In this document: in pieces, positions 3,571 through 48,061 of the stretch
Numbering within the stretch: position 1 is the stretch's first letter
Layout: the number at the start of each line of letters is the position of its first letter
Origin: Eledone cirrhosa
Taxonomy: Eukaryota
Length of the DNA: 64,000 nt
NCBI GenBank assembly: GCA_964016885.1
Contig: OZ024742.1
Coordinates: 316,572,001 to 316,636,000 of the forward strand
Direction of reading: 5' to 3'
Made by a program: the position numbers and the translations under genes
The notes under the pieces: generated by a model
What the model saw: the letters and a program-made list of their open reading frames with translations, nothing else
Told to the model about the DNA's origin: nothing
Databases searched by the model: none

Positions 3571-5145
<1,575 letters not shown>

Positions 5146-13272: not shown

Positions 13273-13453
13273 GGTGGATTGGCAGTATCGGTAGAGGGTC
13301 GGACGCCATGCTTTCCAGCATAGTTACGTCCCTTTACGATCTGAGTTCAAATCCCGCCGAGGTTGACTTTGCCTTTCATCCTTACGGGGTCGATAAAATA
13401 AAGTACCAGTAATAAACTGGGTAATTGCTGGCCTTGTGCCTAAAGTAGAAACA
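13273..13453 (+). mobile_element. tRNA-derived SINE with 14-bp TSD
   Basis: A-box-like TGGCAGTATCGG, B-box GAGTTCAAATCC, core TTTGCCTTTCATCCTTACGGGGTCGATAAAATAAAGTACCAG. TSD ATTAAGATTTGCAG. Confidence 0.9.
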
Positions 13454-13492
13454 ATTAAGATTTGCAGATCGTTTAACATATGTGGCATTAAT

Positions 13493-13677
13493 AATTGTTT
13501 CTACTTTTGGCACAAGGCCAGCAGTTATCCCAGTGTATTACTGGTACTTTATTTTATCGCCCCCATAAGGATGAAAGGCAAAGTTAACCTAGGCGGGATT
13601 TGAACTCAGAATGTCAAGGGCCGTAACTCTATGCGTCAAATCATGGCTTCCGACCCTCTACCGATACTGCCAATCCT
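13493..13677 (-). mobile_element. Same SINE family, inverted relative to its neighbour
   Basis: Reverse complement of the SINE at 13273. Confidence 0.9.
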
Positions 13678-14005: not shown

Positions 14006-14007
<2 letters not shown>

Positions 14008-15767
14008 AGGGAGGCGCCGTGGTGGTGAGGCGCGCGGACCTCTACACGGCCGAAGCCCTCAGGCAGCTCTGTAACCCCCTCTTCTACCGCCCTCTACCCT
14101 CCGATCCCACCCTCTCTACGAACAACAAGTCTCCTCCACCATCAAAGACCTTATCGCCTCCTCCCTCCTCCCCCCCACCACTTCCCACCTCATCGTCCGC
14201 ACCCCCCGCACCCCACCATCTACTTCCTCCCCAAACTCCACAAACCCGACAACCCCGGCCGCCCCATCGTCTCCGCTTGCAACTGCCCCACCGAACTCAT
14301 CTCCGCCTTTCTCGACTCCATCCTCGCCCCCCCCCTTGTCACCACCCTCCCCTCCCACATCTCTGACACCAACCACGCCCTGCGCCTTTTCGACTCCTTC
14401 ACCTACCCACCCGGCCCACAGCCCTTCCTCTTCACCCTAGACATCAAGTCCCTCTATACCGTCATCCTCCACGCCGACGGCCTACGGGCCTTCAAACACT
14501 ACCTCGACCTTCGCCCCTCCCCCATTCCCTCCAGCCCACCCTCCTTCGCCTCGCCGAGCTGGTCCTCACCCTCAATTGTTTCTCCTTCTCGGGTGAGTTT
14601 TACCAACAGGTCACGGGGGTAGCCATGGGTACAAGAATGGGCCCGAACTATGCCAACCTTTTTGTTGGCCATGTAGAGGCCCAAATCTTTGCCCAGTACA
14701 CCGGCCCCACGCCCGAACTGTACGGTCGTTACATTGACGACTGTATCGGAGCCACGACCCTCACCCGAGAACAGCTCGACTCCTTTCTCTCCTTCTTCTG
14801 CTCCTTCCACCCCTCCCTCCACTTCACCACCTCTATCTCCACCACCCACGTCCACTTCTTAGATATATCCGTCGCCTTCAACCCCTCCCACCACTCCCTC
14901 GTCACCTCCGCCTTCTTCAAACCCACCGACTCCCACTCTTACCTCGACTTCACCTCTTCCCACCCCACCCACATTAAACACTCCATTCCCTACTCCCAAC
15001 TCCTCAGGATCCGCCGCCTCTGTAGCCGAGATGCTGACTTCGAGTCCCAGGCCCTTTCCCTAGTCAGCCATTTCATCCGCAGAGGTTACCCCCCTCTCTC
15101 GTCCACACCGCTCTCACCCGCGCCCGTGCTGTCCACCGCTCCACCACCCTCACCCCACGCCACCGCACACCCACCCACCGTCTCCCCTTACTCATCACAT
15201 ACCACCCCTCCACCTTACCCCTCCACCGCACCATCCGCCGCCTCTTCCGACGCCTCCAGTCCGACCCCTCCACCTCCCACATCTTCCCAACCCCACCACT
15301 CCCCTCCTTCAAACGCGCACGCAATCTCCGCACCCTCCTCGTCCACAGCTCCCTACCCCCCAACCCACGCTCTGTTTCCCCCCGCCCCGGTTCCTTTCAC
15401 TGTTCTAGGCCCCGCTGCAACACCTGTCCCCACATCACCAACACCACCACCTTCCAGGGTCCCAACGGCCACTCTCTCTCTGTCCGGCATGCCTTCCGCT
15501 GCACCTCCTCCAACCTATGTCGGACAGACGGGACGTCGCCTGGCGGACCGATTCACTGAGCACCTCCGGGATATTCGTCTCGGTGGTAGTTCCCCCATGG
15601 CCCGCCACTTTGGTGGCCCTGGACATTGCGCACGCCATCTCACAGTCTGTGGCCTACTCCAATGCCACGGAACCCCCGCCAATCGCCTTAGAGTCGAACA
15701 AAGAACTATCTTCATCTTACAGTCCCACACTCCCCCCGGCCTGAACTCCCGACCCTTATTCCTTTAG
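14006..15767 (+). pseudogene. PLE reverse transcriptase + GIY-YIG endonuclease, several frameshifts
   Basis: Motifs are spread over different frames. The GIY half of the nuclease motif appears deleted before YVGQT. Confidence 0.85.
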
Positions 15768-17271
15768 CCTTCGACCGCCCCCTCCCCCCACACTTATCCC
15801 CCACTAACACCACTAACACACCCCTCATTTTCACCGCCCACCCCAAAACTAACAATACTAACACCTCCACTCCACCCCTCATCCGACCACCCTTCCCCAA
15901 CTAACATACTAACATCCCTCCCTTCTTCTCCTCCTCCCCCTCCTCATCACACGCACACACACACCGGCACATATATACACGCGCTCACACTAAACACACA
16001 CCCTACTACCACCACTAACCCTCACCCCCACACCTCCATCCCACCACCCCGCAACTAACCCCACTAACACCGCCTGACCCCAAGCACACGAACACACACA
16101 CCCACTTACACCACCCACTCCACACGCAACTAACATCACTAACACCCCCCCCAACCCCACGCATACGTACCCACACACCCTCGTACACCACCAACTCTAC
16201 ACACCCTACCACCACTAACCCCCACTCACATCTGCATTCAACCCTTCCCCACCTCCCGTATACTAACACCCACTAACACCCCTTCATCAAACTACACACA
16301 CACCAGTACACCACACTCCCTCCATAGAAGTACACACACCCTTCTCCCCCCCCCCTCCACCCACACCCTCGCTCCACACTCACTCATCCCACTAACGCCT
16401 CTACTAATACACACACACACCCTCCTCACTCCAACTTTCACACCTACCCATCCTCGCCCATTTACCATTCCACCGACTGCTGCTAAGCACTCTGACCACC
16501 TCTCAGCACAAACAGACACACAGTACTCCCACTGCTTGACCACTTCCTGTTGCGCGCGCAACCCCACATCTCTCCTCTTCCGACCATCTCTTCATGGAAT
16601 ACTCGTATGTGGAACTTGACCACCACGGAATCTACTAAACATCATAGGAATTTACCAACTTTTCAACCATCCTCTTACGAAATCACCTATATAACTCACC
16701 CACACACACACCCCAAACATTTTTTTTTTCACACGCCACCTACACCCACAACACGCTTAAACCCCACACACACGTGCTTTCCACCACATATTTACACCCT
16801 CAGCCTCCTGATTCCTCTCCTCCCACCCCTCTATCCACACACGCACAGACACTCCGACCTACAACCCCCCCCCCCCCCCCCCCCCACCCCCCACCCCACA
16901 CACCTCTTCCTGAACATGCAACCCCGTTCTTCCCCCAACCCTTAATTTCACATACACACACACACACACACACGTACACCTACACACACACACCACCATC
17001 AGCCCTCCCCGCTCGGACACCCCGTCTCCCTCTCCCCACTCCACCCGCCACCACCCCCTACACCCCACACCCTTCCACCACCTGTTTTACCCCTTTTTAA
17101 TTTCAGTTTATTTTGATCATGCTTTTATATTTAATTTTATTTCATTCCTTGTATTTTGATCATGCTTTATTTTTATTTTTATTTTTAATTTCATTCGCAC
17201 CGTTTCCTTTGCTATATGTCTCTCCACCACTCCCCTACACACCCTTTGAACTCTGTTCCCACACACTTCTC

Positions 17272-17303
17272 ACCTGAAGAAGGGCTTATGCCCGAAACGT
17301 CGT
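17272..17303 (+). ncRNA. Minimal hammerhead motif in PLE pLTR
   Basis: ac-CTGAAGA-a-GGGC-ttat-GCCC-GAAA-cg-TC-gt. Confidence 0.7.
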
Positions 17304-17712
17304 TCCCCACCACCACCCCACTCTCCAGAGCGTGAAATTAATAAATATTCGTTGTACTGCCTCTCTGTTTTGTTCCTGTCCAAATTTTTCCATTATATAT
17401 ATATATATATATATATATAAAAACAAATAACGGAACGAAATTAAATTTCGTTTCGTTTGTAACTCACTTTTGTATGACTGACGCTTAAACAATTAAGTTA
17501 AAAATGTACATCCACATATGTATACTGAAATACTAGTATGCATATGAATACACACACGTATACATATGTAGATGTACCAAGTTTTTCACTGGTCACTTTA
17601 CCGTGAGTGTCCAGCTATTCTGTATGTAAACACACAGACAAACCGGTTTTTAGAGTCATACTGGTTTTTGAGGAAACACCTTTCCTCTATTCTCCAGAAA
17701 GCCAGACAAGGA

Positions 17713-17755
17713 ACATTGAACTAGTTTCGTTGTTGTTACAACTCATCAGCAATAT
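17713..17755 (-). ncRNA. Canonical minimal type I hammerhead
   Basis: Reverse complement of the motif at 18489-18531. Confidence 0.85.
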
Positions 17756-18488
17756 TTACCTATCTACCGGCCTTTCTGGAGAATCGTAAAAGCACATATC
17801 GTTATATGCTTTTTCTATGAAAATTAGTAGTGGGCAGACCAATCTGCATAGAGTGTGAGTACGTACCGGTTCAACGGAGACGATAAAAACAAATAACGAA
17901 ACGAAATTAAATTTCGTTTCGTTTGTAACTCACTTTTGTATGACTGACGCTTAAACAATTAAGTTAAAAATGTACATCCACATATGTATACTGAAATACT
18001 AGTATGCATATGAATACACACACGTATACATATGTAGATGTACCAAGTTTTTCACTGGTCACTTTACCGTGAGTGTCCAGCTATTCTGTATGTAAACACA
18101 CAGACAAACCGGTTTTTAGAGTCATACTGGTTTTTGAGGAAACACCTTTCCTCTATTCTCCAGCTGGACACTCACGGTAAAGTGACCAGTTGAAAACTTG
18201 GTACATCTACATATGTATACGTGTGTGTATTCATATGCATACTAGTATTTCAGTATACATATGTGGATGTACATTTTTAACTTAATTGTTTAAGCGTCAG
18301 TCATACAAAAGTGAGTTACAAACGAAACGAAATTTAATTTCGTTTCGTTATTTGTTTTTATCGTCTCCGTTGAACCGGTACGTACTCACACTCTATGCAG
18401 ATTGGTCTGCCCACTACTAATTTTCATAGAAAAAGCATATAACGATATGTGCTTTTACGATTCTCCAGAAAGGCCGGTAGATAGGTAA

Positions 18489-18531
18489 ATATTGCTGATG
18501 AGTTGTAACAACAACGAAACTAGTTCAATGT
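18489..18531 (+). ncRNA. Canonical minimal type I hammerhead
   Basis: atattg-CTGATGA-gttgt-aaca-acaac-GAAA-ctag-TT-caatgt. Palindromic ACTAGT stem III. Confidence 0.85.
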
Positions 18532-18753
18532 TCCTTGTCTGGCTTTCTGGAGAATAGAGGAAAGGTGTTTCCTCAAAAACCAGTATGACTCTAAAAACCG
18601 GTTTGTCTGTGTGTTTACATACAGAATAGCTGGACACTCACGGTAAAGTGACCAGTGAAAAACTTGGGACATCTACATATGTATACGTGTGTGTATTCAT
18701 ATGCATACTAGTATTTCATTATACATATGTGGATGTACATTTTTAACTTAATT

Positions 18754-18802
<49 letters not shown>

Positions 18803-22069: not shown

Positions 22070-22434
22070 AGAGGTTATATTTAATTTGTTGTGATACAAC
22101 AAGCAAAATATTTTTATAACTGATATAAAGCACTCAAATTACTGGAGTAAATATACAATATATTAACAAATGGAAACTATATTTATAAAACCATATTTAT
22201 TTCATTATACATATTTCAAGGGCCACCAAGGCAAATTATGGTGCGCTTTCATCAGATAAGATATAATATAGGTTAGTTTTATAAATATTGACATACTCAG
22301 ATAAAAAAAAACCAGGGTATGTAAATATTTATTTATAAAATTAACCTATATTATATTTTATCTGATGAAAGCGCACCATAATTTGCCTTGGTGGCCCTTG
22401 AAATATGTATAATGAAATAAATATGGTTTTATAA

Positions 22435-22440
<6 letters not shown>
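22068..22440. mobile_element. Inverted pair of hammerhead-bearing pLTR-like repeats
   Basis: HHR at 22354-22419 (+): tattttat-CTGATGA-aagcgcacca..tggtggccctt-GAAA-tatgta-TA-atgaaata. Mirror copy at 22198-22263 (-). Confidence 0.8.
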
Positions 22441-22529: not shown

Positions 22530-23589
22530 TGTGTACAAAATTGTATACACTTCATAGTTTTGTGCTATATAGTATTGGAATGCAATTTCTAATAACTGAA
22601 AATTTTGTTATGAACAGTTTCATAAAATGTGGTTTTAGTAATATGTTTTCCTTTAGCAGAAGCCAAATAATAGAAATGTTTTTCGTTGCCTTGATCAATA
22701 TATTACAAGTCTGTTATGGTGTTACTTCCATGTCAAACGTCAGGCCTAGAGATGTTTTGTCTGCAACTATGGTTATTGGTTTTATTTTCCTACTAATCTG
22801 AAGTACATTAGTGTAAAGCAGATAAATGTCAGTCAGATATTTCCCCATGTAAATAGTCATAAGATTCAAGTCTCGCTACATATAGATATAATAAAAGGCA
22901 ATCCTAATATTTAACCTTGTTTGAATCAAAGTTAAAAGGAAGATCTATGTTCACATAGGTCATATAGCTTCTCACATATGAAAACAATTCTTTACCACTG
23001 TCGAAAGCTCTGTCATGAACCTGTTTTGTCGAGAAACGTTTTCACATCAATGTCTGAGATAACAACATACCATCCATAATGAATTAGGTAAATGCCCAAG
23101 TACGCTTAGAAGGCAACAATCTCCAGTGTTTGCCTTTCAGCCTGGATTAGTTGCCTCTATGTTCATATCATATATTTTCTCACATATGAAATAATTTTCC
23201 TCGTCTTTATCACAGTAAAGCTCTGTCATGAACCTGTTTTGCCGAGACAGTTTTTCACATCAATGTCTGAGATGACAGCCATTATAAATGAGATGATTAC
23301 CCAGGTACACTTAGTAGACAACGATCTTCAGAGTCTGACTTTCAAGCTGGACTATTTGCCACTCAATAAAATTCACTTTCGTGTTTTCATTGTTGCTGTT
23401 GCTGAGACTGGTAGTCATGTCTGCATCAATAAAGACGTGGAAAATTGCCTATACTTGTGTTTTCCTGTAAAAGCCTTTTTGTTTTTGTATTGTTGGAGGT
23501 CAACTTATCAATGAAAAACATCTTTTCAAACTAGAATTTATATGAAATTATAATCTTTTATTACCATGTATTATTATATTTATATGCCT

Positions 23590-23729
23590 TGCAGCACAGT
23601 TACGTACTTTTACGGACTGAGTTCAAATCCCGCCGAGGTTAACTTTGCCTTTCATCCTTATGGGGTCGATAAAATAAAGTACCAGTAATGTACTGGATAT
23701 TTGCTGGCTTTGTGCCAAAAGTAGAAACA
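23590..23729 (+). mobile_element. 5'-truncated SINE with 17-bp TSD
   Basis: SINE core present. TSD ATTATATTTATATGCCT. Confidence 0.9.
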
Positions 23730-24236
23730 ATTATATTTATATGCCTAAAGTATAATTGACTAACTACCGTCCTGCTTCTTATTTCATGTCAATATACAGA
23801 TATATATTCTCATATGATATTGTATATAAAGACATTGTAATCAGTTTCTATTTTTTAATTCTATATGTCAGTTAATGTACGGATGTACATAAGTGCAAAC
23901 ATTTTGATATATTGTTTTTAATATACCACTTTTGCTTTGCTTTTGCCTTTGCTTATGCTTTTGCTTTGCTATGTATTCTTAATTAGTATAGTGTGAACCT
24001 CGTCCGTTGTATGGAGTTATCTCATTGATGTAAAACAGTTGACATTTTAAACAATATTTAGAATTTAGATTCCTATGTATATGTAGAGCAATGAACAGAT
24101 ATCTCTTATGTAGCGTGGTATGGCACACCGGTCTATATATAGAATGAAGATATATTTTAAATTTAAAAAAAAAAAAATATATATATATATATACATATGT
24201 ATATATATATATATATATATACCTTCCCTGTGGGGC

Positions 24237-24325
24237 TCCCTTGATAAGCTGGGTTACCTCACAACAATGTTACATATCTATGATATAACATTTTTGCATA
24301 GTGACCAGCGAAACTACAGTCGGGA
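24237..24325 (+). ncRNA. U3:A8 variant hammerhead with extended stem II, in a short insert within (TA)n
   Basis: tccc-TTGATAA-gctg-g-gttac...gtgac-cagc-GAAA-ctacag-TC-ggga. Confidence 0.75.
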
Positions 24326-24375
24326 CGAAGAAAAAATAGGTATATATTGTGTCTATTATTCCTTCTTATTTTATA

Positions 24376-24441
<66 letters not shown>

Positions 24442-24446
<5 letters not shown>

Positions 24447-27400
24447 AGGATGAATATAAAATGAAAGTGCTTTTGTTAAAAAAGGAATTTATTAGGTATT
24501 GACATATGTTTCTGTAACAGACCGAATACCTATGTATCGCTGCTTGCGTAATCATATAATGTTAGCAAGTATTCGATAGCAAATGTATAATCAGTTGTCA
24601 CTTCTTCAGAGATTTTGGATAAACTGGATAAAATCAGAAAAATTGAAGTATTTATATTAGTAAAAGAGGAAGGAACAGAGGGGATAGAATATGACAGATG
24701 GTAAAATAATTTACTGCTAAACAAGTATATAATGGGTTTTTAATGAGAATACCATGAGTAAATCTAAATAAGAATTTTGGGAGTGCCGATTTTAATCTCT
24801 ACTTGACCAACTGGACAGTGGACAGGGCTGGTCATTTGGTGCAGTAGTATTAATCATAAAGTGTCAATTGGGGAAGGGGGAGATTTCGATTGCTACTAAA
24901 TAACATCAATGCTAGTAGTCAGCTGGTATTTCCACTAGGGAATTGAATCAAAAAATCAGAAATCTCATTTTATCTATAGCAGTTTGTATTAAAAGGTAAA
25001 TAATAGAAGAGTTGATAGAATTAAGACTAATAAAGAATGTTAATATCTATTTTGACAATCAAACGGGGATAGAGACAGGCGTTCAATCCTGGTAGTATTT
25101 ATAATATGAAAATGTAGATTTTAAGCGATGGTTACAGTATAACGATCGCTCTATTCTGTTATTTAATAAAATGTTTTTGGATTTCATAATACAAAATAAT
25201 TCTACATTACATAATTTACAAAATTCCTGTCCATTGGTATATGGGGGGGCAGACGCTATTATATCCCATTTTAGGTGAAATTGTTGGTTATTTTCACGCA
25301 GCTGCCAAGCCTTGTCTGCGAGTGTTGTTACATAACGCTGGTTTTCATGTTTTATCGAATAACGATGTCTATAAAGGCGTGATTTAAAGGAGGTGGCTGT
25401 AGATCCCACATAGTACCACTTCTGTCTATTCGATTCGATAGTACATTTGTATACGATGTTGCGTTCAAGACACTGATTGTTCAACGGACACATTCCTGGT
25501 TGGACACAGTTGCAATTACAATTTTGCGTTGTTGTATTGCCATGGATGGGTTGATGAGGTTGCTTATGCAGGACAGGATGTTGTTTGTTGTTTTGTGATG
25601 TTATAGCTAATGTTTTACGTGTATTGTTATGTGTTGGAAGGCGTTTATACAACCGTTTTGCGTTAAGCATTTTTATATGTTGTTCAATATTAGGGGCGGT
25701 TGAATATGAAAGTCGGATGGTGTTAGGGTTTAAGATTTTATTATATTTATGTGATGTTGGAAAGTGTTTTCTAACTAATCGAAAGAATTTTGTGGGTAGA
25801 TTGGTTATAATAGATTTGTTATAGACCGGGTTGTACCAGATATACTCCTTACATCGCCTTCTGTTTGGTGGTGTGCGACTATTATTGTGTCTATTGCGGT
25901 AGTGTATGTATGGTGGTGATTCTGTGCTATTTCTACTCCTATGTGATTTATTTTGGGTGTTTTGGTGATCATTGACTATATACTCTATATTATCTAGGTG
26001 ACCGGCTTTCCTAAGTGCATCATCATAATACTCGGCATGTTCTTTGAAGGTTTGTTGGTTGGACGATAGGCGGGAGATTCTAAGAGAAACATTTCTAGGG
26101 ATGGATTTAATTATAGAGAGTGGATGGTTAGAACTCGTATTTACATATTTAAGGTTCTCATTTAGTTTATGGAACGGTTTAATCGTATCTGTATTGAGAT
26201 TGAAAGTAACATCAAGGAAATTGACCTCTTTGAGGTTATATTCAAATGTAATATTTAATCCTAGTTCTTTAAAAAGTTTTCTGATATTTTTACGCATCCT
26301 TTCTAAATTCTGGTTATTCATATTCTTAACTAATAGGAGCGCATCGTCACGGTAAATTCCACCGTGGAGATCCTTGAATTTTCCTTGTAATCTGTGGGTG
26401 ATATAAATTCCCACAAGATCTGTTACTTCCGCCGAATCATTAGAACCCATAGTGATATCAAAATTAGAAGGTCTATCTTTGCGAACCCAGTAGCTATCAT
26501 CGAATTTAACTATAGTTTTTCTCGCTTCCATAATAATTTTAATTTCAGCATCCGTGAGGTCGGAATTATCCTTAGCGAACGAAAGAGCTTCATGTAGAGT
26601 ATCAGGTGAAATTGAGGAATAATATTCATCAATATCAAACTGAATAAATTTTGATTTTTTCTTATCAGTAATGTTGTTAAACCATCTTATTGCTTCATGA
26701 GTGTTACCCCATAGTTTAATCTCTACTTTAACCTTAACTTGGGGGATAATTCTGTCTAGTATATATTTGCTAATTTTACCTATATCAGATTTAGAGGGGC
26801 ATATAAGTCTAATATTAGGGTTAGTATCGAAGTTTACCTTGTGGTCCTTCAGGTTGAAGGATGGTATAGCTGGTGTTAAGGGTTGCGTTCTATCGTCAAT
26901 ATAAAGTTTTTTAACAATATCACATGCCGAGTTGTTGATGTTTTTAAGTGTGGCTTCATTAGTTTTCCTGTATTTTTTATGCAATTCCTTACGGATGAAG
27001 TTATTGTAAGTGTCCACATCCATGGTATATACGTTTGATGTTTTGTCTGCTCTAACAATAACTCCATTGGCGTTTTTTAGATTATTGAGCAGTGCCGTGA
27101 TGTCATTCTGTAGTTTATTGTTCTTACGTTTTGTAAATTTGATCTCCATGATCATATCCATTAGGTCTTGTTCAAATGCATCCAAAAGTGGGTTTGAGGG
27201 TGGGTTCTTGTAAGATTTAAATCCAAATTTATCCTTGTTAAGATCCGATGTTTGGTTTATACGGCTTTTGTCAAAATGGAATGTTTTCCATCTGATTCGT
27301 CGAATAAAATCATTGGTCCTTCGTATCATACCTAGAATATAATCGCTTTTTGCCTGAATAGGTATGTTTTTTAACGACATATCCAATTGGTGCCTTTCCA

Positions 27401-27850
27401 TTTTAGAAGCGTATGCTGAATTAGTTGCTCAACTGTATAGGAGATTAATAAAATTTCAGGTTATCAATAATGTAGTGATAATATATCGTTACGTTAGAGA
27501 TGAACAGCGTACGTGCAGGTTTGCTCAACGAGTATAAATTATATTCCGGAGAAATGTAGAAAGGATGAATATAAAATGAAAGTGCTTTTGTTAAAAAAGG
27601 AATTTATTAGGTATTGACATATGTTTCTGTAACAGACCGAATACCTATGTATCGCTGCTTGCGTAATCATATAATGTTAGCAAGTATTCGATAGCAAATG
27701 TATAATCAGTTGTCACTTCTTCAGAGATTTTGGATAAACTGGATAAAATCAGAAAAATTGAAGTATTTATATTAGTAAAAGAGGAAGGAACAGAGGGGAT
27801 AGAATATGACAGATGGTAAAATAATTTACTGCTAAACAAGTATATAATGG
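24442..27850 (-). mobile_element. Naiad-like PLE, left (inverted) arm with partial tandem pLTRs
   Basis: Mirror image of 28053-31461. pLTR repeated at a 3115-bp period. Ends on TA in (TA)n. Confidence 0.95.
25083..27401 (-). CDS. Penelope-like (Naiad-type) reverse transcriptase / GIY-YIG endonuclease, 772 aa
   Basis: ADKT motif, QFDIDEYY, ITMGS, IYRDD catalytic motif, NFLDV, CNC..CPL..CL Cys cluster, NIVY..YYVGST nuclease motif, CKLC..E..LLN..E..CNH tail. Confidence 0.95.
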   Translation of the reverse strand: MERHQLDMSLKNIPIQAKSDYILGMIRRTNDFIRRIRWKTFHFDKSRINQTSDLNKDKFGFKSYKNPPSNPLLDAFEQDLMDMIMEIKFTKRKNNKLQNDITALLNNLKNANGVIVRADKTSNVYTMDVDTYNNFIRKELHKKYRKTNEATLKNINNSACDIVKKLYIDDRTQPLTPAIPSFNLKDHKVNFDTNPNIRLICPSKSDIGKISKYILDRIIPQVKVKVEIKLWGNTHEAIRWFNNITDKKKSKFIQFDIDEYYSSISPDTLHEALSFAKDNSDLTDAEIKIIMEARKTIVKFDDSYWVRKDRPSNFDITMGSNDSAEVTDLVGIYITHRLQGKFKDLHGGIYRDDALLLVKNMNNQNLERMRKNIRKLFKELGLNITFEYNLKEVNFLDVTFNLNTDTIKPFHKLNENLKYVNTSSNHPLSIIKSIPRNVSLRISRLSSNQQTFKEHAEYYDDALRKAGHLDNIEYIVNDHQNTQNKSHRSRNSTESPPYIHYRNRHNNSRTPPNRRRCKEYIWYNPVYNKSIITNLPTKFFRLVRKHFPTSHKYNKILNPNTIRLSYSTAPNIEQHIKMLNAKRLYKRLPTHNNTRKTLAITSQNNKQHPVLHKQPHQPIHGNTTTQNCNCNCVQPGMCPLNNQCLERNIVYKCTIESNRQKWYYVGSTATSFKSRLYRHRYSIKHENQRYVTTLADKAWQLRENNQQFHLKWDIIASAPPYTNGQEFCKLCNVELFCIMKSKNILLNNRIERSLYCNHRLKSTFSYYKYYQD

Positions 27851-28501
27851 AAGTGGAAATACCAGCTGACTACTAGCATTGATGTTATTTAGTAGCAATC
27901 GAAATCTCCCCCTTCCCCAATTGACACTTTATGATTAATACTACTGCACCAAATGACCAGCCCTGTCCACTGTCCAGTTGGTCAAGTAGAGATTAAAATC
28001 GGCTCTCCCAAAATTCTTATTTAGATTTACTCATGGTATTCTCATTAAAAACCCATTATATACTTGTTTAGCAGTAAATTATTTTACCATCTGTCATATT
28101 CTATCCCCTCTGTTCCTTCCTCTTTTACTAATATAAATACTTCAATTTTTCTGATTTTATCCAGTTTATCCAAAATCTCTGAAGAAGTGACAACTGATTA
28201 TACATTTGCTATCGAATACTTGCTAACATTATATGATTACGCAAGCAGCGATACATAGGTATTCGGTCTGTTACAGAAACATATGTCAATACCTAGTAAA
28301 TTCCTTTTTTAACAAAAGCACTTTCATTTTATATTCATCCTTTCTACATTTCTCCGGAATATAATTTATACTCGTTGAGCAAACCTGCACGTACGCTGTT
28401 CATCTCTAACGTAACGATATATTATCACTACATTATTGATAACCTGAAATTTTATTAATCTCCTATACAGTTGAGCAACTAATTCAGCATACGCTTCTAA
28501 A

Positions 28502-30820
28502 ATGGAAAGGCACCAATTGGATATGTCGTTAAAAAACATACCTATTCAGGCAAAAAGGGATTATATTCTAGGTATGATACGAAGGACCAATGATTTTATT
28601 CGACGAATCAGATGGAAAACATTCCATTTTGACAAAAGCCGTATAAACCAAACATCGGATCTTAACAAGGATAAATTTGGATTTAAATCTTACAAGAACC
28701 CACCCTCAAACCCACTTTTGGATGCATTTGAACAAGACCTAATGGATATGATCATGGAGATCAAATTTACAAAACGTAAGAACAATAAACTACAGAATGA
28801 CATCACGGCACTGCTCAATAATCTAAAAAACGCCAATGGAGTTATTGTTAGAGCAGACAAAACATCAAACGTATATACCATGGATGTGGACACTTACAAT
28901 AACTTCATCCGTAAGGAATTGCATAAAAAATACAGGAAAACTAATGAAGCCACACTTAAAAACATCAACAACTCGGCATGTGATATTGTTAAAAAACTTT
29001 GTATTGACGATAGAACGCAACCCTTAACACCAGCTATACCATCCTTCAACCTGAAGGACCACAAGGTAAACTTCGATACTAACCCTAATATTAGACTTAT
29101 ATGCCCCTCTAAATCTGGTATAGGTAAAATTAGCAAATATATACTAGACAGAATTATCCCCCAAGTTAAGGTTAAAGTAGAGATTAAACTATGGGGTAAC
29201 ACTCATGAAGCAATAAGATGGTTTAACAACATTACTGATAAGAAAAAATCAAAATTTATTCAGTTTGATATTGATGAATATTATTCCTCAATTTCACCTG
29301 ATACTCTACATGAAGCTCTTTCGTTCGCTAAGGATAATTCCGACCTCACGGATGCTGAAATTAAAATTATTATGGAAGCGAGAAAAACTATAGTTAAATT
29401 CGATGATAGCTACTGGGTTCGCAAAGATAGACCTTCTAATTTTGATATCACTATGGGTTCTAATGATTCGGCGGAAGTAACAGATCTTGTGGGAATTTAT
29501 ATCACCCACAGATTACAAGGAAAATTCAAGGATCTCCACGGTGGAATTTACCGTGACGATGCGCTCCTATTAGTTAAGAATATGAATAACCAGAATTTAG
29601 AAAGGATGCGTAAAAATATCAGAAAACTTTTTAAAGAACTAGGATTAAATATTACATTTGAATATAACCTCAAAGAGGTCAATTTCCTTGATGTTACTTT
29701 CAATCTCAATACAGATACGATTAAACCGTTCCATAAACTAAATGAGAACCTTAAATATGTAAATACGAGTTCTAACCATCCACTCTCTATAATTAAATCC
29801 ATCCCTAGAAATGTTTCTCTTAGAATCTCCCGCCTATCGTCCAACCAACAAACCTTCAAAGAACATGCCGAGTATTATGATGATGCACTTAGGAAAGCCG
29901 GTCACCTAGATAATATAGAGTATATAGTCAATGATCACCAAAACACCCAAAATAAATCACATAGGAGTAGAAATAGCACAGAATCACCACCATACATACA
30001 CTACCGCAATAGACACAATAATAGTCGCACACCACCAAACAGAAAGCGATGTAAGGAGTATATCTGGTACAACCCGGTCTATAACAAATCTATTATAACC
30101 AATCTACCCACAAAATTCTTTCGATTAGTTAGAAAACACTTTCCAACATCACATAAATATAATAAAATCTTAAACCCTAACACCATCCGACTTTCATATT
30201 CAACCGCCCCTAATATTGAACAACATATAAAAATGCTTAACGCAAAACGGTTGTATAAACGCCTTCCAACACATAACAATACACGTAAAACATTAGCTAT
30301 AACATCACAAAACAACAAACAACATCCTGTCCTGCATAAGCAACCTCATCAACCCATCCATGGCAATACAACAACGCAAAATTGTAATTGCAACTGTGTC
30401 CAACCAGGAATGTGTCCGTTGAACAATCAGTGTCTTGAACGCAACATCGTATACAAATGTACTATCGAATCGAATAGACAGAAGTGGTACTATGTGGGAT
30501 CTACAGCCACCTCCTTTAAATCACGCCTTTATAGACATCGTTATTCGATAAAACATGAAAACCAGCGTTATGTAACAACACTCGCAGACAAGGCTTGGCA
30601 GCTGCGTGAAAATAACCAACAATTTCACCTAAAATGGGATATAATAGCGTCTGCCCCCCCATATACCAATGGACAGGAATTTTGTAAATTATGTAATGTA
30701 GAATTATTTTGTATTATGAAATCCAAAAACATTTTATTAAATAACAGAATAGAGCGATCGTTATACTGTAACCATCGCTTAAAATCTACATTTTCATATT
30801 ATAAATACTACCAGGATTGA
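28502..30820 (+). CDS. Penelope-like (Naiad-type) reverse transcriptase / GIY-YIG endonuclease, 772 aa
   Basis: Same motifs as the 25083-27401 ORF. I see 4 amino-acid differences (S/R, Y/C, D/G, R/K). Confidence 0.95.
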   Translation: MERHQLDMSLKNIPIQAKRDYILGMIRRTNDFIRRIRWKTFHFDKSRINQTSDLNKDKFGFKSYKNPPSNPLLDAFEQDLMDMIMEIKFTKRKNNKLQNDITALLNNLKNANGVIVRADKTSNVYTMDVDTYNNFIRKELHKKYRKTNEATLKNINNSACDIVKKLCIDDRTQPLTPAIPSFNLKDHKVNFDTNPNIRLICPSKSGIGKISKYILDRIIPQVKVKVEIKLWGNTHEAIRWFNNITDKKKSKFIQFDIDEYYSSISPDTLHEALSFAKDNSDLTDAEIKIIMEARKTIVKFDDSYWVRKDRPSNFDITMGSNDSAEVTDLVGIYITHRLQGKFKDLHGGIYRDDALLLVKNMNNQNLERMRKNIRKLFKELGLNITFEYNLKEVNFLDVTFNLNTDTIKPFHKLNENLKYVNTSSNHPLSIIKSIPRNVSLRISRLSSNQQTFKEHAEYYDDALRKAGHLDNIEYIVNDHQNTQNKSHRSRNSTESPPYIHYRNRHNNSRTPPNRKRCKEYIWYNPVYNKSIITNLPTKFFRLVRKHFPTSHKYNKILNPNTIRLSYSTAPNIEQHIKMLNAKRLYKRLPTHNNTRKTLAITSQNNKQHPVLHKQPHQPIHGNTTTQNCNCNCVQPGMCPLNNQCLERNIVYKCTIESNRQKWYYVGSTATSFKSRLYRHRYSIKHENQRYVTTLADKAWQLRENNQQFHLKWDIIASAPPYTNGQEFCKLCNVELFCIMKSKNILLNNRIERSLYCNHRLKSTFSYYKYYQD

Positions 30821-31293
30821 ACGCCTGTCTCTATCCCCGTTTGATTGTCAAAATAGATATTAACATTCTTTATTAGTCTTAATTCTATCAACTCTTCTAT
30901 TATTTACCTTTTAATACAAACTGCTATAGATAAAATGAGATTTCTGATTTTTTGATTCAATTCCCTAGTGGAAATACCAGCTGACTACTAGCATTGATGT
31001 TATTTAGTAGCAATCGAAATCTCCCCCTTCCCCAATTGACACTTTATGATTAATACTACTGCACCAAATGACCAGCCCTGTCCACTGTCCAGTTGGTCAA
31101 GTAGAGATTAAAATCGGCACTCCCAAAATTCTTATTTAGATTTACTCATGGTATTCTCATTAAAAACCCATTATATACTTGTTTAGCAGTAAATTATTTT
31201 ACCATCTGTCATATTCTATCCCCTCTGTTCCTTCCTCTTTTACTAATATAAATACTTCAATTTTTCTGATTTTATCCAGTTTATCCAAAATCT

Positions 31294-31409
31294 CTGAAGA
31301 AGTGACAACTGATTATACATTTGCTATCGAATACTTGCTAACATTATATGATTACGCAAGCAGCGATACATAGGTATTCGGTCTGTTACAGAAACATATG
31401 TCAATACCT
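31294..31409 (+). ncRNA. Hammerhead-like motif with ~90-nt stem II in the pLTR (copies at 28179-28294 +, 24494-24609 -, 27609-27724 -)
   Basis: CTGAAGA-a-gtgaca-actga...tcggt-c-tgttac-a-GAAA-catatg-TC. Stem I is not locally paired. Confidence 0.5.
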
Positions 31410-31562
31410 AATAAATTCCTTTTTTAACAAAAGCACTTTCATTTTATATTCATCCTTTCTACATTTCTCCGGAATATAATTTATACTCGTTGAGCAAACC
31501 TGCACGTACGCTGTTCATCTCTAACGTAACGATATATTATCACTACATTATTGATAACCTGA

Positions 31563-31602
<40 letters not shown>

Positions 31603-31757
31603 ATATTTATATATAAATGTATATATATTAGAAAGTGAGGTTTTTTTTACAAAATGAAAAAAACCGAGGTGTCCTACACGAGTGAAAGTATAAGGAAAAA
31701 AGATGAAATCCAAATTGCAACTGGAGTCTTTTTATATAAAAATATATATTTATTTGG

Positions 31758-34217: not shown

Positions 34218-35324
<1,107 letters not shown>

Positions 35325-35330
<6 letters not shown>

Positions 35331-37941
35331 TATGAAGAGAGAAGAAACATTTAGATATAATTAGTAATAAAATGTATCATACCTAAACTGTTCCTAAATT
35401 CCTCGACTTCGTAGTTTCGTGGCATAAACAAAAACAATATATCAAAGATATAGAGTCCTTGCGAGGTCTGCCGACTTATCAAGAGGATACCTCATTTTAC
35501 TAGTCTCAAGAACGCGTCTACACGACGTGAGAAAGAATCCCAAAAGGCGGAGGGGGAGATAGTCACGCGATATAACGGTCGAGAAACAGAGCTAAGCCTC
35601 TTATAACCACGAAGAAAATACCACGGAGGCGGAGGGGGTATTCATATCGAGGCCGTAGAAGAGGTAGTGAAGAAGGCGAGAAGTATGAGTAATGGAAGCT
35701 TTCCAGTTGTCCCCACACCTCAAAGATTGCTCGACCAGAGGGAGTTATTAATATATTTAGAAACACACAGATACATGCGGGGACACACATATATACATGA
35801 ATGCATCCACACCCAACTGTGAGTTAAGGGTGCCAACTTCACCGATGTTGCTCAATGAATGACTGGGACAGACCAATTCAGTTTGAACCAGACTGAACCA
35901 GTATCAGAGTTAAAAATACATTATGAAGAGAGAAGAAACATTTAGATATAATTAGTAATAAAATGTATCATACCTAAACTGTTCCTAAATTCCTCGACTA
36001 CGTAGTTTCGTGGCATAAACAAAAACAATATATCAAAGATATAGAGTCCTTGCGAGGTCTGCCGACTTATCAAGAGGATACCTCATTTTACTAGTCTCAA
36101 GAACGCGTCTACACGACGTGAGAAAGAATCCCAAAAGGCGGTATATATGTGTGTGTCCGCATGTATCTGTGTGTTTCTAAATATATTAATAACTCCCTCT
36201 GGTCGAGCAATCTTTGAGGTGTGGGGACAACTGGAAAGCTTCCATTACTCATACTTCTCGCCTTCTTCACTACCTCTTCTACGGCCTCGATATGAATACC
36301 CCCTCCGCCTCCGTGGTATTTTCTTCGTGGTTATAAGAGGCTTAGCTCTGTTTCTCGACCGTTATATCGCGTGACTATCTCCCCCTCCGCCTTTTGGGAT
36401 TCTTTCTCACGTCGTGTAGACGCGTTCTTGAGACTAGTAAAATGAGGTATCCTCTTGATAAGTCGGCAGACCTCGCAAGGACTCTATATCTTTGATATAT
36501 TGTTTTTGTTTATGCCACGAAACTACGTAGTCGAGGAATTTAGGAACAGTTTAGGTATGATACATTTTATTACTAATTATATCTAAATGTTTCTTCTCTC
36601 TTCATAATGTATTTTTAACTCTGATACTGGTTCAGTCTGGTTCAAACTGAATTGGTCTGTCCCAGTCATTCATTGAGCAACATCGGTGAAGTTGGCACCC
36701 TTAACTCACAGTTGGGTGTGGATGCATTCATGTATATATGTGTGTGTCCGCATGTATCTGTGTGTTTCTAAATATATTAATAACTCCCTCTGGTCGAGTA
36801 ATCTTTGAGGTGTGGGGACAACTGGAAAGCTTCCATTACTCATACTTCTCGCCTTCTTCACTACCTCTTCTACGGCCTCGATATGAATACCCCCTCCGCC
36901 TCCGTGGTATTTTCTTCGTGGTTATAAGAGGCTTAGCTCTGTTTCTCGACCGTTATATCGCGTGACTATCTCCCCCTCCGCCTTTTGGGATTCTTTCTCA
37001 CGTCGTGTAGACGCGTTCTTGAGACTAGTAAAATGAGGTATCCTCTTGATAAGTCGGCAGACCTCGCAAGGACTCTATATCTTTGATATATTGTTTTTGT
37101 TTATGCCACGAAACTACGTAGTCGAGGAATTTAGGAACAGTTTAGGTATGATACATTTTATTACTAATTATATCTAAATGTTTCTTCTCTCTTCATAATG
37201 TATTTTTAACTCTGATACTGGTTCAGTCTGGTTCAAACTGAATTGGTCTGTCCCAGTCATTCATTGAGCAACATCGGTGAAGTTGGCACCCTTAACTCAC
37301 AGTTGGGTGTGGATGCATTCATGTATATATGTGTGTGTCCGCATGTATCTGTGTGTTTCTAAATATATTAATAACTCCCTCTGGTCGAGCAATCTTTGAG
37401 GTGTGGGGACAACTGGAAAGCTTCCATTACTCATACTTCTCGCTTTCTTCACTACCTCTTCTACGGCCTCGATATGAATACCCCCTCCGCCTCCGTGGTA
37501 TTTTCTTCGTGGTTATAAGAGGCTTAGCTCTGTTTCTCGACCGTTATATCGCGTGACTATCTTCCCCTCCGCCTTTTGGGATTCTTTCTCACGTCGTGTA
37601 GACGCGTTCTTGAGACTAGTAAAATGAGGTATCCTCTTGATAAGTCGGCAGACCTCGCAAGGACTCTATATCTTTGATATATTGTTTTTGCTTATGCCAC
37701 GAAACTACGTAGTCGAGGAATTTAGGAACAGTTTAGGTATGATACATTTTATTACTAATTATATCTAAATGTTTCTTCTCTCTTCATAATGTATTTTTAA
37801 CTCTGATACTGGTTCAGTCTGGTTCAAACTGAATTGGTCTGTCCCAGTCATTCATTGAGCAACATCGGTGAAGTTGGCACCCTTAACTCACAGTTGGATG
37901 CATTCATGTATATATGTGTGTGTCCGCATGTATCTGTGTGT

Positions 37942-37946
<5 letters not shown>
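35325..37946. mobile_element. Retrozyme-like array: 591-bp non-coding unit, ~1.4 copies on minus (35325-36141) and ~3.1 tandem copies on plus (36142-37946)
   Basis: Period 591, near-identical units, (TA)n on both flanks, five variant hammerheads in total. Confidence 0.9.
36450..36537 (+). ncRNA. U3:A8 variant hammerhead with enlarged stem II (also 37041-37128 +, 37632-37719 +, 35400-35487 -, 35991-36078 -)
   Basis: tcctc-TTGATAA-gtcggca...tgccac-GAAA-ctacgtag-TC-gagga. Confidence 0.75.
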
Positions 37947-42188: not shown

Positions 42189-43067
42189 GCACTCCCTTTG
42201 ATTGTTGAAAATTATGAATTTTGGATTCTTATAGAATTCCAGTAATACTTTTTGCTGGCCCGGCAACCGCTCTGTATAATCAGTTCCTGATTATCACTGG
42301 AATTCTATAAGAATCCAGCATTCATAATATATGTAAATAAGATAAGACCGAAAGATAGTGCATTCAAATATCACACAGATAAAGATAGATAGATAGAGAT
42401 ACAGAGAGAGCGTGAGAGAGAGAGTGAAATGAGGTGTGACAGAAATTAAACATGAATTATAGGTTCAAATAAAGCCTAGTTAAATGAGAAACAAAGTGAT
42501 GATGTAGTTTATGGAAAACCCTGATGATTTACAATTCGACCCTAAAATGAAGCAATAACATTAAGAAAAGGTTTATAAATATTAATTTTCTGCAGGAGAG
42601 TGTAGTCTTCTAGGTGGAATAGTGGTGTGTGTTAGAGACGGTGAAGCTCCTTGTCTGGTGTTCAATCTTAGTCAGGAGATACAAGTAGGGTCCCTGATTA
42701 ATGATTTTCAATTTTCCTTTTAAATCTCCCAGAAAAAAGAAAGGAAATAAAATTAGTGAGAATCCCAATATGTGATTATTTTGTTTCATTTCATTTTATT
42801 TCATATTTCATATTTAAATTTGATATTTCAATACTTTATTATTGGCATGGCATTCTGTAGGTGTCCTGGTGGCTAAGCTGCAGCTGATATGGTGTAGTTA
42901 CATGTTTAGCAGAGATTGTAGATATCCTTTTATTTAATTATTATTTTAACAAACAATTGATATATACAACACCAATCATTGCAAGTTCAAATCTGACTGA
43001 CATGCTGTCATATATACGTAAAAATGATAGTAGATTCAAATATCACACACGCACACATACACGCAGG

Positions 43068-43107
<40 letters not shown>

Positions 43108-43415
43108 GAGAGAGAGATGAGGTGTGACAGAAATGAAACTGTCATTTTACATATCTTAGGAAAAACTGACAAATTTTAGTTTGAACCCCAATATGTATAT
43201 ATTTTATATTATTTCATTTGATTTTATTGGATTTCATTTTCTTTCACTTTGTTATATATTATTTTATATTTTATATTTAAATTCGATATTTTCATACTTT
43301 ATTATTGACATGACATTCTGTAGATGTCCAGGTGGCTCAGTTCGAGCGGATATGGTGTAGTTACAGGTTCAATGTTTAGAACAGATTATAGATATCCTTT
43401 TATATAATCATTATT

Positions 43416-43595
43416 TGGCAGTATCGGTAGAGGGTTGGACGCCATGCTTTATAGCATAGTTACGTCCCTTTACGGTCTGAGTTCAAATCCCGCCGAGGTT
43501 AACTTTGCCTTTCCTCCTTACGGGTTCGATAAAATAAAGTACCAGTAATGTACTGAGTAATTTCTGGCCTTGTGCCTAAAGTAGAAGCAATTATT
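43416..43595 (+). mobile_element. SINE copy
   Basis: Same core as 13273. Confidence 0.9.
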
Positions 43596-43912
43596 TTAAC
43601 AAACAAATGATATATATAGTGCCAATCATTGTAAGTTCGAATCTGACTGACATGCTGTCACATGTACGTAAAATTGATGAGCCCAAATGTTAGTAGATTC
43701 AAATATCACACGCGCACAGACAGGTAGAGATATAGGGAGAAAGAAATGTTTTTCAATTTAATTTTATTTTATATTTTATATCTAAATTTGATAATACTTT
43801 ACTATTGACATGACATTCTGTAGGTTTCTTAGTGGCTCAGTTGCAGCTAATGTGGTGTAGTTTCAGATTTAGCAGCGATTGTAGATATCCTTATATTTAA
43901 TTATTATTTTAT

Positions 43913-44243
43913 ACGGCCCTTGCCATTCTGAGTTCAAATCCCGCCGAGGTTAACTTTGCCTTTCATCCTTACGGGGTCGATAAAATAAAGTACCAGTAAT
44001 GCACTGGGTATTTGCTGGCCTTGTGCCAAAAGGAGAAACAATTATTTTAATAGTCACAGGGCGGGGGATTGGCAGTATCAGTAGAAGGTCGGACGCCATG
44101 CTTTCCAGCATAGTTACGTCCCTTTACGGTCTGAGTTCAAATCCCGCCAAGGTTAACTTTGCCTTTCATCCTTACGGGGTAGATAAAATAAAGTACCAGT
44201 AATGCACTGGGTAATTGCTGGCCTTGTGCCAAAAGTAGAAACA
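43913..44243 (+). mobile_element. Two adjacent SINE copies
   Basis: The second copy (44059-44243) is flanked by TSD ATTATTTTAATAGTCACA. Confidence 0.9.

Positions 44244-45822: not shown

Positions 45823-45908
<86 letters not shown>

Positions 45909-48016: not shown

Positions 48017-48061
<45 letters not shown>

What the first reader, a model, noticed from the sequence alone, without database searches (positions are those of the whole stretch)
24442..31570. 7.1-kb foldback with two intact PLE ORFs, probably from one insertion event
Seen: arms 24442-27850 and 28053-31461 are near-perfect inverted repeats around a ~200-bp spacer. Both ORFs are open with about 4 aa differences, and both outer ends stop at TA within the pLTR and abut (TA)n. 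Known: inverted PLE 5' arms are usually short pLTR pieces. Inference: both target strands primed more-than-unit-length cDNA. This is a candidate active master locus and a potential 3.4-kb hairpin source of small RNA.
Basis: partly seen in the sequence, partly recalled or inferred. Interest (0 to 1): 0.7.

Follow-up and report, generated by a model that had tools for sequence, protein, structure and literature searches.

The report
Head-to-head pair of intact Hydra retrotransposons
Two open-reading-frame copies of a Hydra-clade Penelope-like retrotransposon sit head-to-head inside a TA microsatellite, likely made in one recent insertion in which both cut DNA strands primed reverse transcription; this is an unusually complete example of a known insertion layout, not a new system.

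Summary
Arms 24442-27850 and 28053-31461 differ at 5 of 3,409 bases, both 772-aa ORFs are open (4 aa differences), and both outer ends stop at TA against (TA)n. Two corrections. First, the element is not a Naiad: the telomerase-like RT starts at residue 1, the GIY-YIG nuclease is C-terminal, and the RWK, DKT, CxCx5C, CxxC and CxH motifs mark the Hydra clade. Second, the 'spacer' is the start of the right copy's own 604-bp upstream repeat. The layout is the published Penelope-like one (partial tandem, 5'-joined inverted copy, one-sided tail). It is unusual only in that the inverted copy exceeds one 3,115-bp unit and the tail is 109 nt. Four more head-to-head insertions lie in the same window, two with both arms longer than a unit. 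The junction has one untemplated base and no snap-back homology, which favours twin priming from both target strands followed by end joining. 'Active master' and 'small-RNA hairpin' are untested. Outward-facing copies need a transcript crossing the centre to form a hairpin, and the right ORF has Gly at a conserved acidic site. An assembly artefact is unlikely.

The parts
24382..24443 (.). (TA)n target microsatellite, left flank
   Evidence: shares TA with the element end
24442..27850 (-). Left (inverted) copy, 3,409 nt = 1.09 units; 3' end at (TA)n, 5' end at the junction
24442..24936 (-). 3' terminal repeat region of the left copy; identical to 30967-31461, lacks the 109-nt tail
   Evidence: 0 differences in 495 nt
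24501..24609 (-). Hammerhead-like core, copy in the left 3' repeat
25083..27401 (-). Left ORF, 772 aa RT + C-terminal GIY-YIG; S19, Y167, D206, R515
27448..27850 (-). Upstream partial repeat (pseudo-LTR) of the left copy, 403 nt, identical to 31168-31570
27616..27724 (-). Hammerhead-like core, copy in the left upstream repeat
27851..27851 (.). Head-to-head junction: one base templated by neither arm; no microhomology, no palindrome
27852..31570 (+). Right copy, 3,719 nt = 1.19 units: pseudo-LTR, ORF, 3' UTR/pseudo-LTR, tail
27852..28455 (+). Upstream pseudo-LTR of the right copy (604 nt); its first 201 nt (27852-28052) are the 'spacer'; private changes at 28004 and 28296
28179..28287 (+). Hammerhead-like core, copy in the right upstream repeat
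28502..30820 (+). Right ORF, 772 aa; R19, C167, G206, K515
28502..29956 (+). Telomerase-like RT region (aa 1-485): RWK at 37, DKT at 119, D256, YRDD at 350-353
30374..30817 (+). CxCx5C linker (aa 630-638) and GIY-YIG nuclease (Y651, Y664-V-G666, R675, H679, E734, N747; CxxC 728-731; CxH 756-758)
30967..31570 (+). 3' terminal repeat of the right copy
31294..31402 (+). Hammerhead-like core: CUGAAGA, 88-nt stem II hairpin (31302-31389), GAAA, palindromic stem III, GUC; adjacent stem I only 1 bp
31462..31570 (+). 109-nt one-sided tail, present at the right end only
31568..31628 (.). (TA)n target microsatellite, right flank

Best explanation
This is a Hydra-clade Penelope-like retrotransposon present as two open head-to-head copies with both 3' ends on one (TA)n tract, likely written in a single recent event in which the element's nuclease cut both strands of the tract and each free end primed its own reverse transcription. 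Steps: (1) Shown: RT plus C-terminal GIY-YIG protein with the conserved catalytic positions present in both copies; (TA)n at both ends; each end stops at a TA shared with the tract. (2) Inferred: (TA)n reads the same on both strands, so the enzyme (likely a dimer) treats both nicked ends alike; the two cDNAs start at two internal RNA sites 109 nt apart, which gives the one-sided tail. (3) Inferred: each RT copied more than one 3,115-nt unit from a read-through, tandem or circular RNA left uncut at its upstream hammerhead-like motif, which gives a pseudo-LTR on each arm. (4) Inferred: the two cDNA ends stopped 201 nt apart and were end-joined with one extra base. (5) The six single-copy differences are later mutations, RT errors or template differences. 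Whether the locus is transcribed, transposes or yields dsRNA is untested.
For: Geometry. The junction has no homology for a fold-back and no palindrome (best stem 3 bp; 187 of 200 background sites reach 3 or more). Protein identity. The same geometry recurs in the window. At 17420-18758 the unit is 466 nt, the arms 744 and 597 nt, the ends offset 66 nt and the junction overlap 2 nt. At 35328-37945 the unit is 591 nt, the arms 814 and about 1,800 nt and the overlap 1 nt. All six outer ends of these three insertions stop at TA beside (TA)n; TA frequency in the elements is 0.08-0.10. Literature: a purified Poseidon-clade protein cleaves and extends both target strands, starts RT at two internal sites that define the tail, is predicted to dimerise and uses uncleaved RNA (PMC11167929). 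Partial tandem + inverted 5' copy + tail is the standard layout, and Hydra families target (TA)n (PMC8557442).
Against: No empty site, second family copy or read was available, so 'one event' rests on geometry and 0.15% arm divergence. In all three long insertions the shorter arm lies wholly within the span of the longer one, and here the two arms stop within 201 nt of each other after more than 3.4 kb. A fold-back explains this naturally; twin priming needs both RTs to run nearly to the template's end. The in vitro precedent is from another clade, where the RT start sites lie inside the ORF and the tail is 30-40 nt; here both ends lie upstream of the ATG and 109 nt apart. Target-site duplication cannot be read in (TA)n.
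Confidence: 0.7

Rival explanations
1. One priming event followed by snap-back: the first cDNA (or an antisense RNA) folded back and was copied into the inverted arm, so the 201-nt spacer is the loop. This is the self-priming model proposed for head-to-head Penelope copies.
For: The short arm is nested in the long arm in all three long insertions. Near-equal arm lengths follow directly. Proposed in PMC3846280 from palindromes at inverted junctions.
Against: The end of the long arm has no complementarity to the site where the short arm starts, and there is no junction palindrome above background in the main element. The 17.4-kb insertion has a 5-bp junction stem, which 43 of 200 background sites also reach. 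The right upstream repeat's G at 28296 is not in the left arm, so under this model it must post-date insertion. The left end still has to land on a TA in the target.
Confidence: 0.13
2. An ordinary insertion with a short (294-nt) inverted pseudo-LTR was later expanded by exactly one unit through recombination or gene conversion from the neighbouring or another copy.
For: The left arm equals 294 nt plus one 3,115-nt unit and carries its own direct repeats (27554-27850 = 24439-24735). Short inverted pieces are the common form (34324-35296 and 2276-3575).
Against: It needs a 3.1-kb conversion tract. Two unrelated short elements in the window also have both arms longer than a unit, which points to a primary RT product.
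Confidence: 0.07
3. Assembly or library fold-back artefact.
For: Near-perfect long inverted repeats are a known product of chimeric long reads and mis-assembly (own knowledge); PMC8557442 notes that such structures trouble assemblies. No reads were seen.
Against: Symmetry stops exactly at element termini and the two flanks are unrelated. The centre is asymmetric, with an extra base. The ends differ by a 109-nt tail and both fall on TA. The arms differ by five substitutions and no indel. The window has no N. The same layout occurs in four other insertions of different families.
Confidence: 0.05
4. Two separate insertions of the same family into one (TA)n tract in opposite orientation.
For: The arms differ at five sites; the single A at 27851 could be a leftover of the tract; (TA)n tracts here host neighbouring insertions (34324-35296 beside 35328-37945).
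Against: The 5' ends meet within one base with no (TA)n between them; 0.15% divergence; the geometry recurs across families in the window.
Confidence: 0.05

Closest known systems
Hydra clade of Penelope-like elements (Craig et al. 2021, PMC8557442), e.g. Hydra-1_Ajap, Hydra-2_Amil, Hydra-1_Obim, Penelope-13_HM
   Same: Single ORF with RT then C-terminal GIY-YIG; RWK, DKT, CxCx5C, CxxC and CxH motifs; no CCHH; (TA)n target; hammerhead-like motif in the 3' repeat. 36% identity over 485 aa to P0049, an Apostichopus japonicus protein that matches Hydra-1_Ajap by eye. Penelope-13_HM is listed with an inverted 5'-truncated copy of 966 nt.
   Different: A new family: the best identity in searches is 55% over a short stretch and 37-46% over most of the length, and by eye it is not Hydra-1_Obim. 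The unit is 3,115 nt against 'generally <3 kb'. There are two low-confidence inserts (aa 479-516, 588-627). The hammerhead has an 88-nt stem II and almost no stem I, unlike the compact motifs tabulated for Hydra. The inverted copy is complete, not truncated within the ORF. It has pseudo-LTRs, which the one listed cephalopod Hydra family lacks.
Naiad clade
   Same: (TA)n preference; partial-tandem and inverted insertions; present in cephalopods.
   Different: Naiads have an N-terminal nuclease with CCHH, a KR-rich block, CxC and DKA. Here the RT fold starts at residue 1, the sequence upstream of the ATG is a copy of the 3' repeat, and the nuclease is C-terminal.
Penelope of Drosophila virilis and Poseidon PAc of Anolis (Penelope/Poseidon clade)
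   Same: Pseudo-LTRs, inverted terminal repeats and a tail; both strands cut and extended and two RT start sites in vitro (PMC11167929); siRNAs mapped to long inverted regions of rearranged Penelope copies (PMC3681739).
   Different: Different clade; tail 30-40 nt and RT starts inside the ORF there, against 109 nt and upstream of the ATG here.
LINE-1 twin priming (recalled, not from a call)
   Same: Both target strands prime cDNA, giving a 5' inversion joined with little or no homology.
   Different: In LINE-1 the two cDNAs copy different parts of one RNA. Here they overlap for 3,409 nt, which needs two templates, a multimeric template or strand displacement.
Non-LTR retrozymes (PMC7229834; bioRxiv 10.64898/2026.07.22.740005)
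   Same: Tandem hammerhead-bearing units related to pseudo-LTRs; the 466-nt element at 17420-18758 fits this description and shows the same head-to-head layout.
   Different: Retrozymes are non-coding; the locus in question is protein-coding and apparently autonomous.

Membership tests
Hydra-clade PLE | Single ORF with RT followed by a C-terminal GIY-YIG nuclease | tested here: met
   Model residues 1-485 match telomerase RT best (Foldseek E 1.8e-9; VIA Z 17.4, rmsd 2.7, 252 aligned). The last 148 aa match GIY-YIG clusters at 0.94-0.96. Pfam gave nothing for the query; GIY-YIG hit 4 and RVT_1 hit 2 of 32 alignment members.
Hydra-clade PLE | RWK motif near the N-terminus; DKG changed to DKT | tested here: met
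   RWK at 37, DKT at 119; no DKG
Hydra-clade PLE | Linker CxCX5C; CxxC and CxH either side of the catalytic E and N; no CCHH | tested here: met
   C630-x-C632-x5-C638; C728xxC731; C756-x-H758; only one Cys between Y651 and Y664
Hydra-clade PLE | No N-terminal CxC domain and no insertion in fingers | tested here: met
   No Cys in aa 1-158; no insertion against 30 relatives between D256 and the DITMG motif
Hydra-clade PLE | Insertion into (TA)n | tested here: met
Hydra-clade PLE | Canonical hammerhead ribozyme in the 3' repeat | tested here: inconclusive
   Core bases, the extra base on each side of stem II, palindromic stem III and GUC are present. Stem II is 88 nt (z -1.81; 8 of 200 shuffles as stable) and adjacent stem I is 1 bp. 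No Rfam hit, but Rfam also missed the compact motif at 18495.
Hydra-clade PLE | Short unit (described as generally <3 kb) | tested here: inconclusive
   3,115 nt: slightly over a descriptive, not strict, limit
Hydra-clade PLE | RT phylogeny places it in the clade | tested here: inconclusive
   Quick tree only, 40 rows, no Naiad reference. The ORF sits in a divergent subgroup separated from the core by SH-aLRT 99; path 1.94 to P0005 (Hydra-2_Amil-like by eye) against 10.7 to another PLE in the window; root unsure.
Naiad | N-terminal GIY-YIG nuclease upstream of the RT | tested here: not met
   The RT fold begins at residue 1; upstream DNA is the 3' repeat copy with a stop just before 28475; the nuclease is C-terminal
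Naiad | CxC motif before the RT, DKA in place of DKG, CCHH in the nuclease | tested here: not met
   DKT at the DKG position; the only DKA is at 696, inside the nuclease; no CCHH
Naiad | RT phylogeny with named Naiad references | not testable with these tools
   No named Naiad protein was available to the tree program
EN+ PLE insertion layout | Partial tandem forming a pseudo-LTR upstream of a full copy | tested here: met
   604-nt direct repeat on the right copy; 294-nt direct repeat on the left
EN+ PLE insertion layout | Inverted 5'-truncated copy joined at the 5' end | tested here: met
   Present, but truncated only within the second unit, so its ORF is whole
EN+ PLE insertion layout | [quoted passage not shown] | tested here: met
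   Present at the right end; 109 nt rather than the 30-40 nt described
EN+ PLE insertion layout | Target-site duplication | not testable with these tools
   Hidden by (TA)n; no empty site available
Active source (master) element | Transcribed, with near-identical daughter copies elsewhere | not testable with these tools
   No RNA data; no other copy in the 64-kb window; no close protein in three searches

The most novel reading that the evidence does not exclude
The locus is a direct genomic record of a dimeric PLE enzyme copying two separate RNAs, each longer than one unit, from both ends of a (TA)n break. It also defines a divergent, currently active Hydra sub-lineage with a 109-nt tail and a hammerhead whose stem II has grown to 88 nt and whose stem I is lost or switchable. 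Its A/G arm differences would be A-to-I edits captured from the two templates, and the locus would both drive the family and feed a 3.4-kb dsRNA back against it.
Probability: 0.15. Interest if true: 0.6.

Novelty: new member of a known kind. Interest (0 to 1): 0.36.

Why it matters
How Penelope-like elements build their tandem and inverted insertions is stated as an open question (PMC8557442), and the in vitro study read here covers a Poseidon-clade protein only (PMC11167929). This locus supplies a young, open Hydra-clade ORF with its repeats and makes two exact predictions: RT start sites 109 nt apart, and extension of both strands of a (TA)n target. It is a good reagent and a clean example, but the layout itself is published and recurs several times in the same 64 kb, so it does not change what is known.

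Tried and rejected
Pfam on the ORF: no RT or GIY-YIG hit. Profile search of PDB sequences: nothing. Rfam on the locus and on the whole window: 0 hits. A sigma-70 promoter scan is irrelevant to a eukaryote and was at chance, 6 sites against 6.4. A structure prediction of the nuclease domain alone was submitted and had not finished at the last poll, so the nuclease call rests on motifs and language-model features, not on a fold match; the fold searches of the whole model covered residues 8-485 only. Search for host exons: 103 window ORFs scanned (102 of the 129 that one search listed outside the locus, plus two added and with SINE and foldback frames left out; approximate), with 3 Pfam hits, none a host gene: RVT_1, GIY-YIG and DUF6451. 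So no host transcript across the locus is shown, though short exons would be missed. A-to-I capture: 4 of 6 single-copy differences are A/G on the sense strand and none is C/T, but p is about 0.06, only one is firmly polarised as A-to-G (28296) and one probably (29118), and the two other long foldbacks show no such bias. Selenocysteine read-through of the TGA stop: another TGA follows after 7 codons and the ORF already ends where relatives end. The careful tree did not finish; only the quick tree is reported.
Full report
OBSERVATION. The inverted repeat is real. Arms 24442-27850 and 28053-31461 align without gaps and differ at 5 of 3,409 positions (one search gives the same pair with 202 nt between the arms). 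Each arm holds an open 772-aa ORF, ATG 28502 on + and ATG 27401 on -, so the copies face outward. All four differences inside the ORF change an amino acid (S/R19, Y/C167, D/G206, R/K515). Both outer ends stop at a TA shared with a (TA)n tract. The gap between the arms is not unique DNA. It is one extra A at 27851 plus the first 201 nt of a 604-nt direct repeat, 27852-28455 = 30967-31570, which sets the unit at 3,115 nt. The right copy is thus 3,719 nt (1.19 units) and the left 3,409 nt (1.09 units). The left copy lacks 201 nt at its 5' end and 109 nt at its 3' end relative to the right.

WHAT THE PROTEIN IS. Pfam gave no informative hit for the ORF. Sequence searches returned full-length relatives at 31-37% identity (51 hits) and none closer than 46% over most of the length. 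An AlphaFold model (mean pLDDT 84) matched telomerase RT best in both fold searches, with the match starting at residue 1. The last 148 residues resemble GIY-YIG clusters by language-model features and keep the Y, YxG, R, H, E and N positions invariant in the alignment. Craig et al. 2021 (PMC8557442) define Hydra by a C-terminal nuclease without CCHH, an RWK motif, DKT for DKG, a CxCX5C linker, CxxC and CxH motifs and (TA)n targets. Every one of these is present. Naiad needs an N-terminal nuclease, CxC and DKA; none is met. The ORF is 36% identical over 485 aa to P0049, which by eye is a copy of Hydra-1_Ajap. By eye it differs from Hydra-1_Obim. A quick tree puts it in a divergent subgroup with an older remnant in this window and an Octopus sinensis fragment (P0057, 49% identity); the tree had no Naiad reference and an unsure root. 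The host is probably a cephalopod: this rests on P0057 and on a dispersed ~190-nt repeat that I recall as an octopus SINE (recalled, no call).

THE REPEAT. Each of the four repeat copies carries a hammerhead-like core: CUGAAGA, an 88-nt hairpin in the stem II position, GAAA, a palindromic stem III and GUC. The unconstrained fold places the hairpin exactly between the two core motifs (z -1.81; 8 of 200 shuffles as stable). Stem I is only 1 bp next to the core, and the bases after the cleavage site pair better with the 3' strand of stem II (-8.0 against -2.4 kcal/mol). Tabulated Hydra hammerheads are compact, 80-100 nt with flanks, although a 2-bp helix I is described for D. virilis Penelope (PMC4209133). 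Neither arm's 5' end lies at the predicted cleavage site (28287), so the templates were not cut there. Activity is untested.

MECHANISM. Both 3' ends are attached to (TA)n and both 5' ends meet in the middle. This is what results if both strands of a cut tract prime cDNA. A Poseidon-clade protein does this in vitro, from two internal start sites that define the tail, on uncleaved RNA (PMC11167929). The junction has one base templated by neither arm, no complementarity that would let the long arm fold back at 28053, and no palindrome above background. That argues against the self-priming model proposed from palindromic junctions in rotifer elements (PMC3846280). Against my reading: the short arm is nested in the long arm here and in both other long insertions, and the arms end only 201 nt apart, which a fold-back explains more simply. 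All six differences among the copies are single-copy, so they do not discriminate. I put twin priming at 0.70, snap-back at 0.13, later expansion at 0.07, two insertions at 0.05 and artefact at 0.05. If all five arm differences arose after insertion, at an assumed 2e-9 to 1e-8 changes per site per year the age would be about 70,000-370,000 years; the rate is my assumption, and RT errors would make it younger.

HOW UNUSUAL. The window holds four more head-to-head insertions beside (TA)n. 17420-18758 is a 466-nt unit with a compact hammerhead, arms 744 and 597 nt. 35328-37945 is a 591-nt unit, arms 814 and about 1,800 nt, with no hammerhead found by my scans. 34324-35296 is a GIY-YIG fragment with 180-nt inverted ends. 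2276-3575 is an older related Hydra family with a short inverted C-terminal piece. Arms longer than a unit on both sides are therefore routine for short units here. The coding case is rarer because each RT had to copy more than 3.4 kb. The layout is described in PMC8557442 (figure legend only, the figure itself was not seen), and Penelope-13_HM is listed with a 966-nt inverted copy. Six library searches listed no paper that, in the parts I read, describes two complete ORFs head-to-head. The library lacks most subscription papers, including the early Penelope structure papers, so this does not show absence.

MASTER AND HAIRPIN CLAIMS. Open ORFs at 0.15% divergence show youth, not activity. Four of four non-synonymous changes is expected without selection (p=0.40), and the right copy has Gly206 where 30 relatives have E (25), D (2), N (2) or T (1), so the left ORF is the better candidate. 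Penelope uses an internal promoter in its upstream repeat (PMC2377424); by analogy each copy here would be transcribed outward and give sense RNA only. A hairpin needs read-through from a flank or an antisense promoter. No host exon was found. There is precedent: siRNAs map to long inverted regions of rearranged Penelope copies in Drosophila (PMC3681739). The A/G skew in the arm differences (p about 0.06, absent from the other two long foldbacks) is too weak to claim captured RNA editing.

ARTEFACT. Unlikely: the symmetry ends at the element's termini, the flanks are unrelated, the centre and ends are asymmetric in the way the biology predicts, and the differences are substitutions without indels. 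Which arm carries which variant could still be mis-phased without long reads.

PAPERS SEEN. PMC8557442: abstract, Introduction, Results parts 1, 3 and 4 of 4, Discussion section 15, supplement parts 1, 2, 8, 52 and 53 of 59 and one term search; supplementary alignment figures S2, S7 and S8 were not read and bear on clade placement. PMC11167929: parts 1-2 of 4 (main text). PMC3846280: passages and Discussion. PMC3681739, PMC4209133, PMC2377424, PMC8969392, PMC7229834: passages. bioRxiv 10.64898/2026.07.22.740005: part 1 of 5. LINE-1 twin priming: recalled.

VERDICT. A real, young, complete Hydra-clade element in a known head-to-head layout, at the long extreme of that layout. New member of a known kind; interest 0.36.

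Noticed in passing
window 17420-18758: Non-coding head-to-head insertion between (TA)n tracts: 466-nt unit, compact type I hammerhead at 18495 (+) and 17749 (-) with a 7-bp stem I; retrozyme-like. An older copy (~89% identical) lies at 10299-10606.
   Followed up: partly
window 35328-37945: Non-coding head-to-head insertion: 591-nt unit, about 3 tandem units on + and 1.4 units inverted, 1-nt junction overlap, ends offset about 150 nt; no hammerhead found by my scans.
   Followed up: partly
window 34324-35296: 5'-truncated element with a GIY-YIG C-terminus (Pfam E 5.5e-4), 180-nt inverted ends and a ~57-nt extension; shares a (TA)n tract with the 35.3-kb insertion.
   Followed up: partly
window 2276-3575: Degraded Hydra element of a related family (about 50% aa identity): an inverted C-terminal piece abuts a sense piece truncated in the RT at ~2838; interrupted at 3573 by another repeat.
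   Followed up: partly
window 14007-17393 and 3573-4849: Very C-rich Penelope-like element of another clade (RT + C-terminal GIY-YIG, frameshifted) with a long 3' region and a hammerhead core at 17274, ending at (TA)n; its 3' 1.3 kb is repeated at 3573-4849 (85%).
   Followed up: no
window 28074-28164 and 28453-28471: Splice-like signals in the upstream repeat: a donor-like GTAAAT at 28074, a branch-like TACTAAT at 28126 and a pyrimidine tract with CAG at 28164, 14 nt before the hammerhead core; a second acceptor-like site before the ATG. Would parallel the 5' intron of Penelope; prediction by eye and regex only.
   Followed up: partly
window 24221-24382: 160-nt island between two (TA)n tracts just left of the element, with a half hammerhead-like motif; possibly the 3' end of an earlier insertion in the same microsatellite.
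   Followed up: no
window 13273-13676, 23555-23751, 43415-43611, 43866-44265, 47390-47525, 53385-53494, 54129-54235, 58811-59003, 60534-60669: Dispersed ~190-nt SINE-like repeat; the two copies at 13273-13676 are tail-to-tail and form an 86% inverted repeat.
   Followed up: no
window 22178-22439: 266-nt imperfect palindrome (89%), MITE-like, next to (TA)n/(TG)n.
   Followed up: no
window 42300-48620: Cluster of diverged repeats (70-83% identical blocks of 150-870 nt), possibly an old local duplication or satellite.
   Followed up: no
window 2-400, 11146-11493, 60911-61288, 62513-63298: Fragments of LINE-type retrotransposons (RVT_1 at 11146-11493; DUF6451 at 2-262; 39-308 repeated at 62727-62996, 96%).
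   Followed up: no
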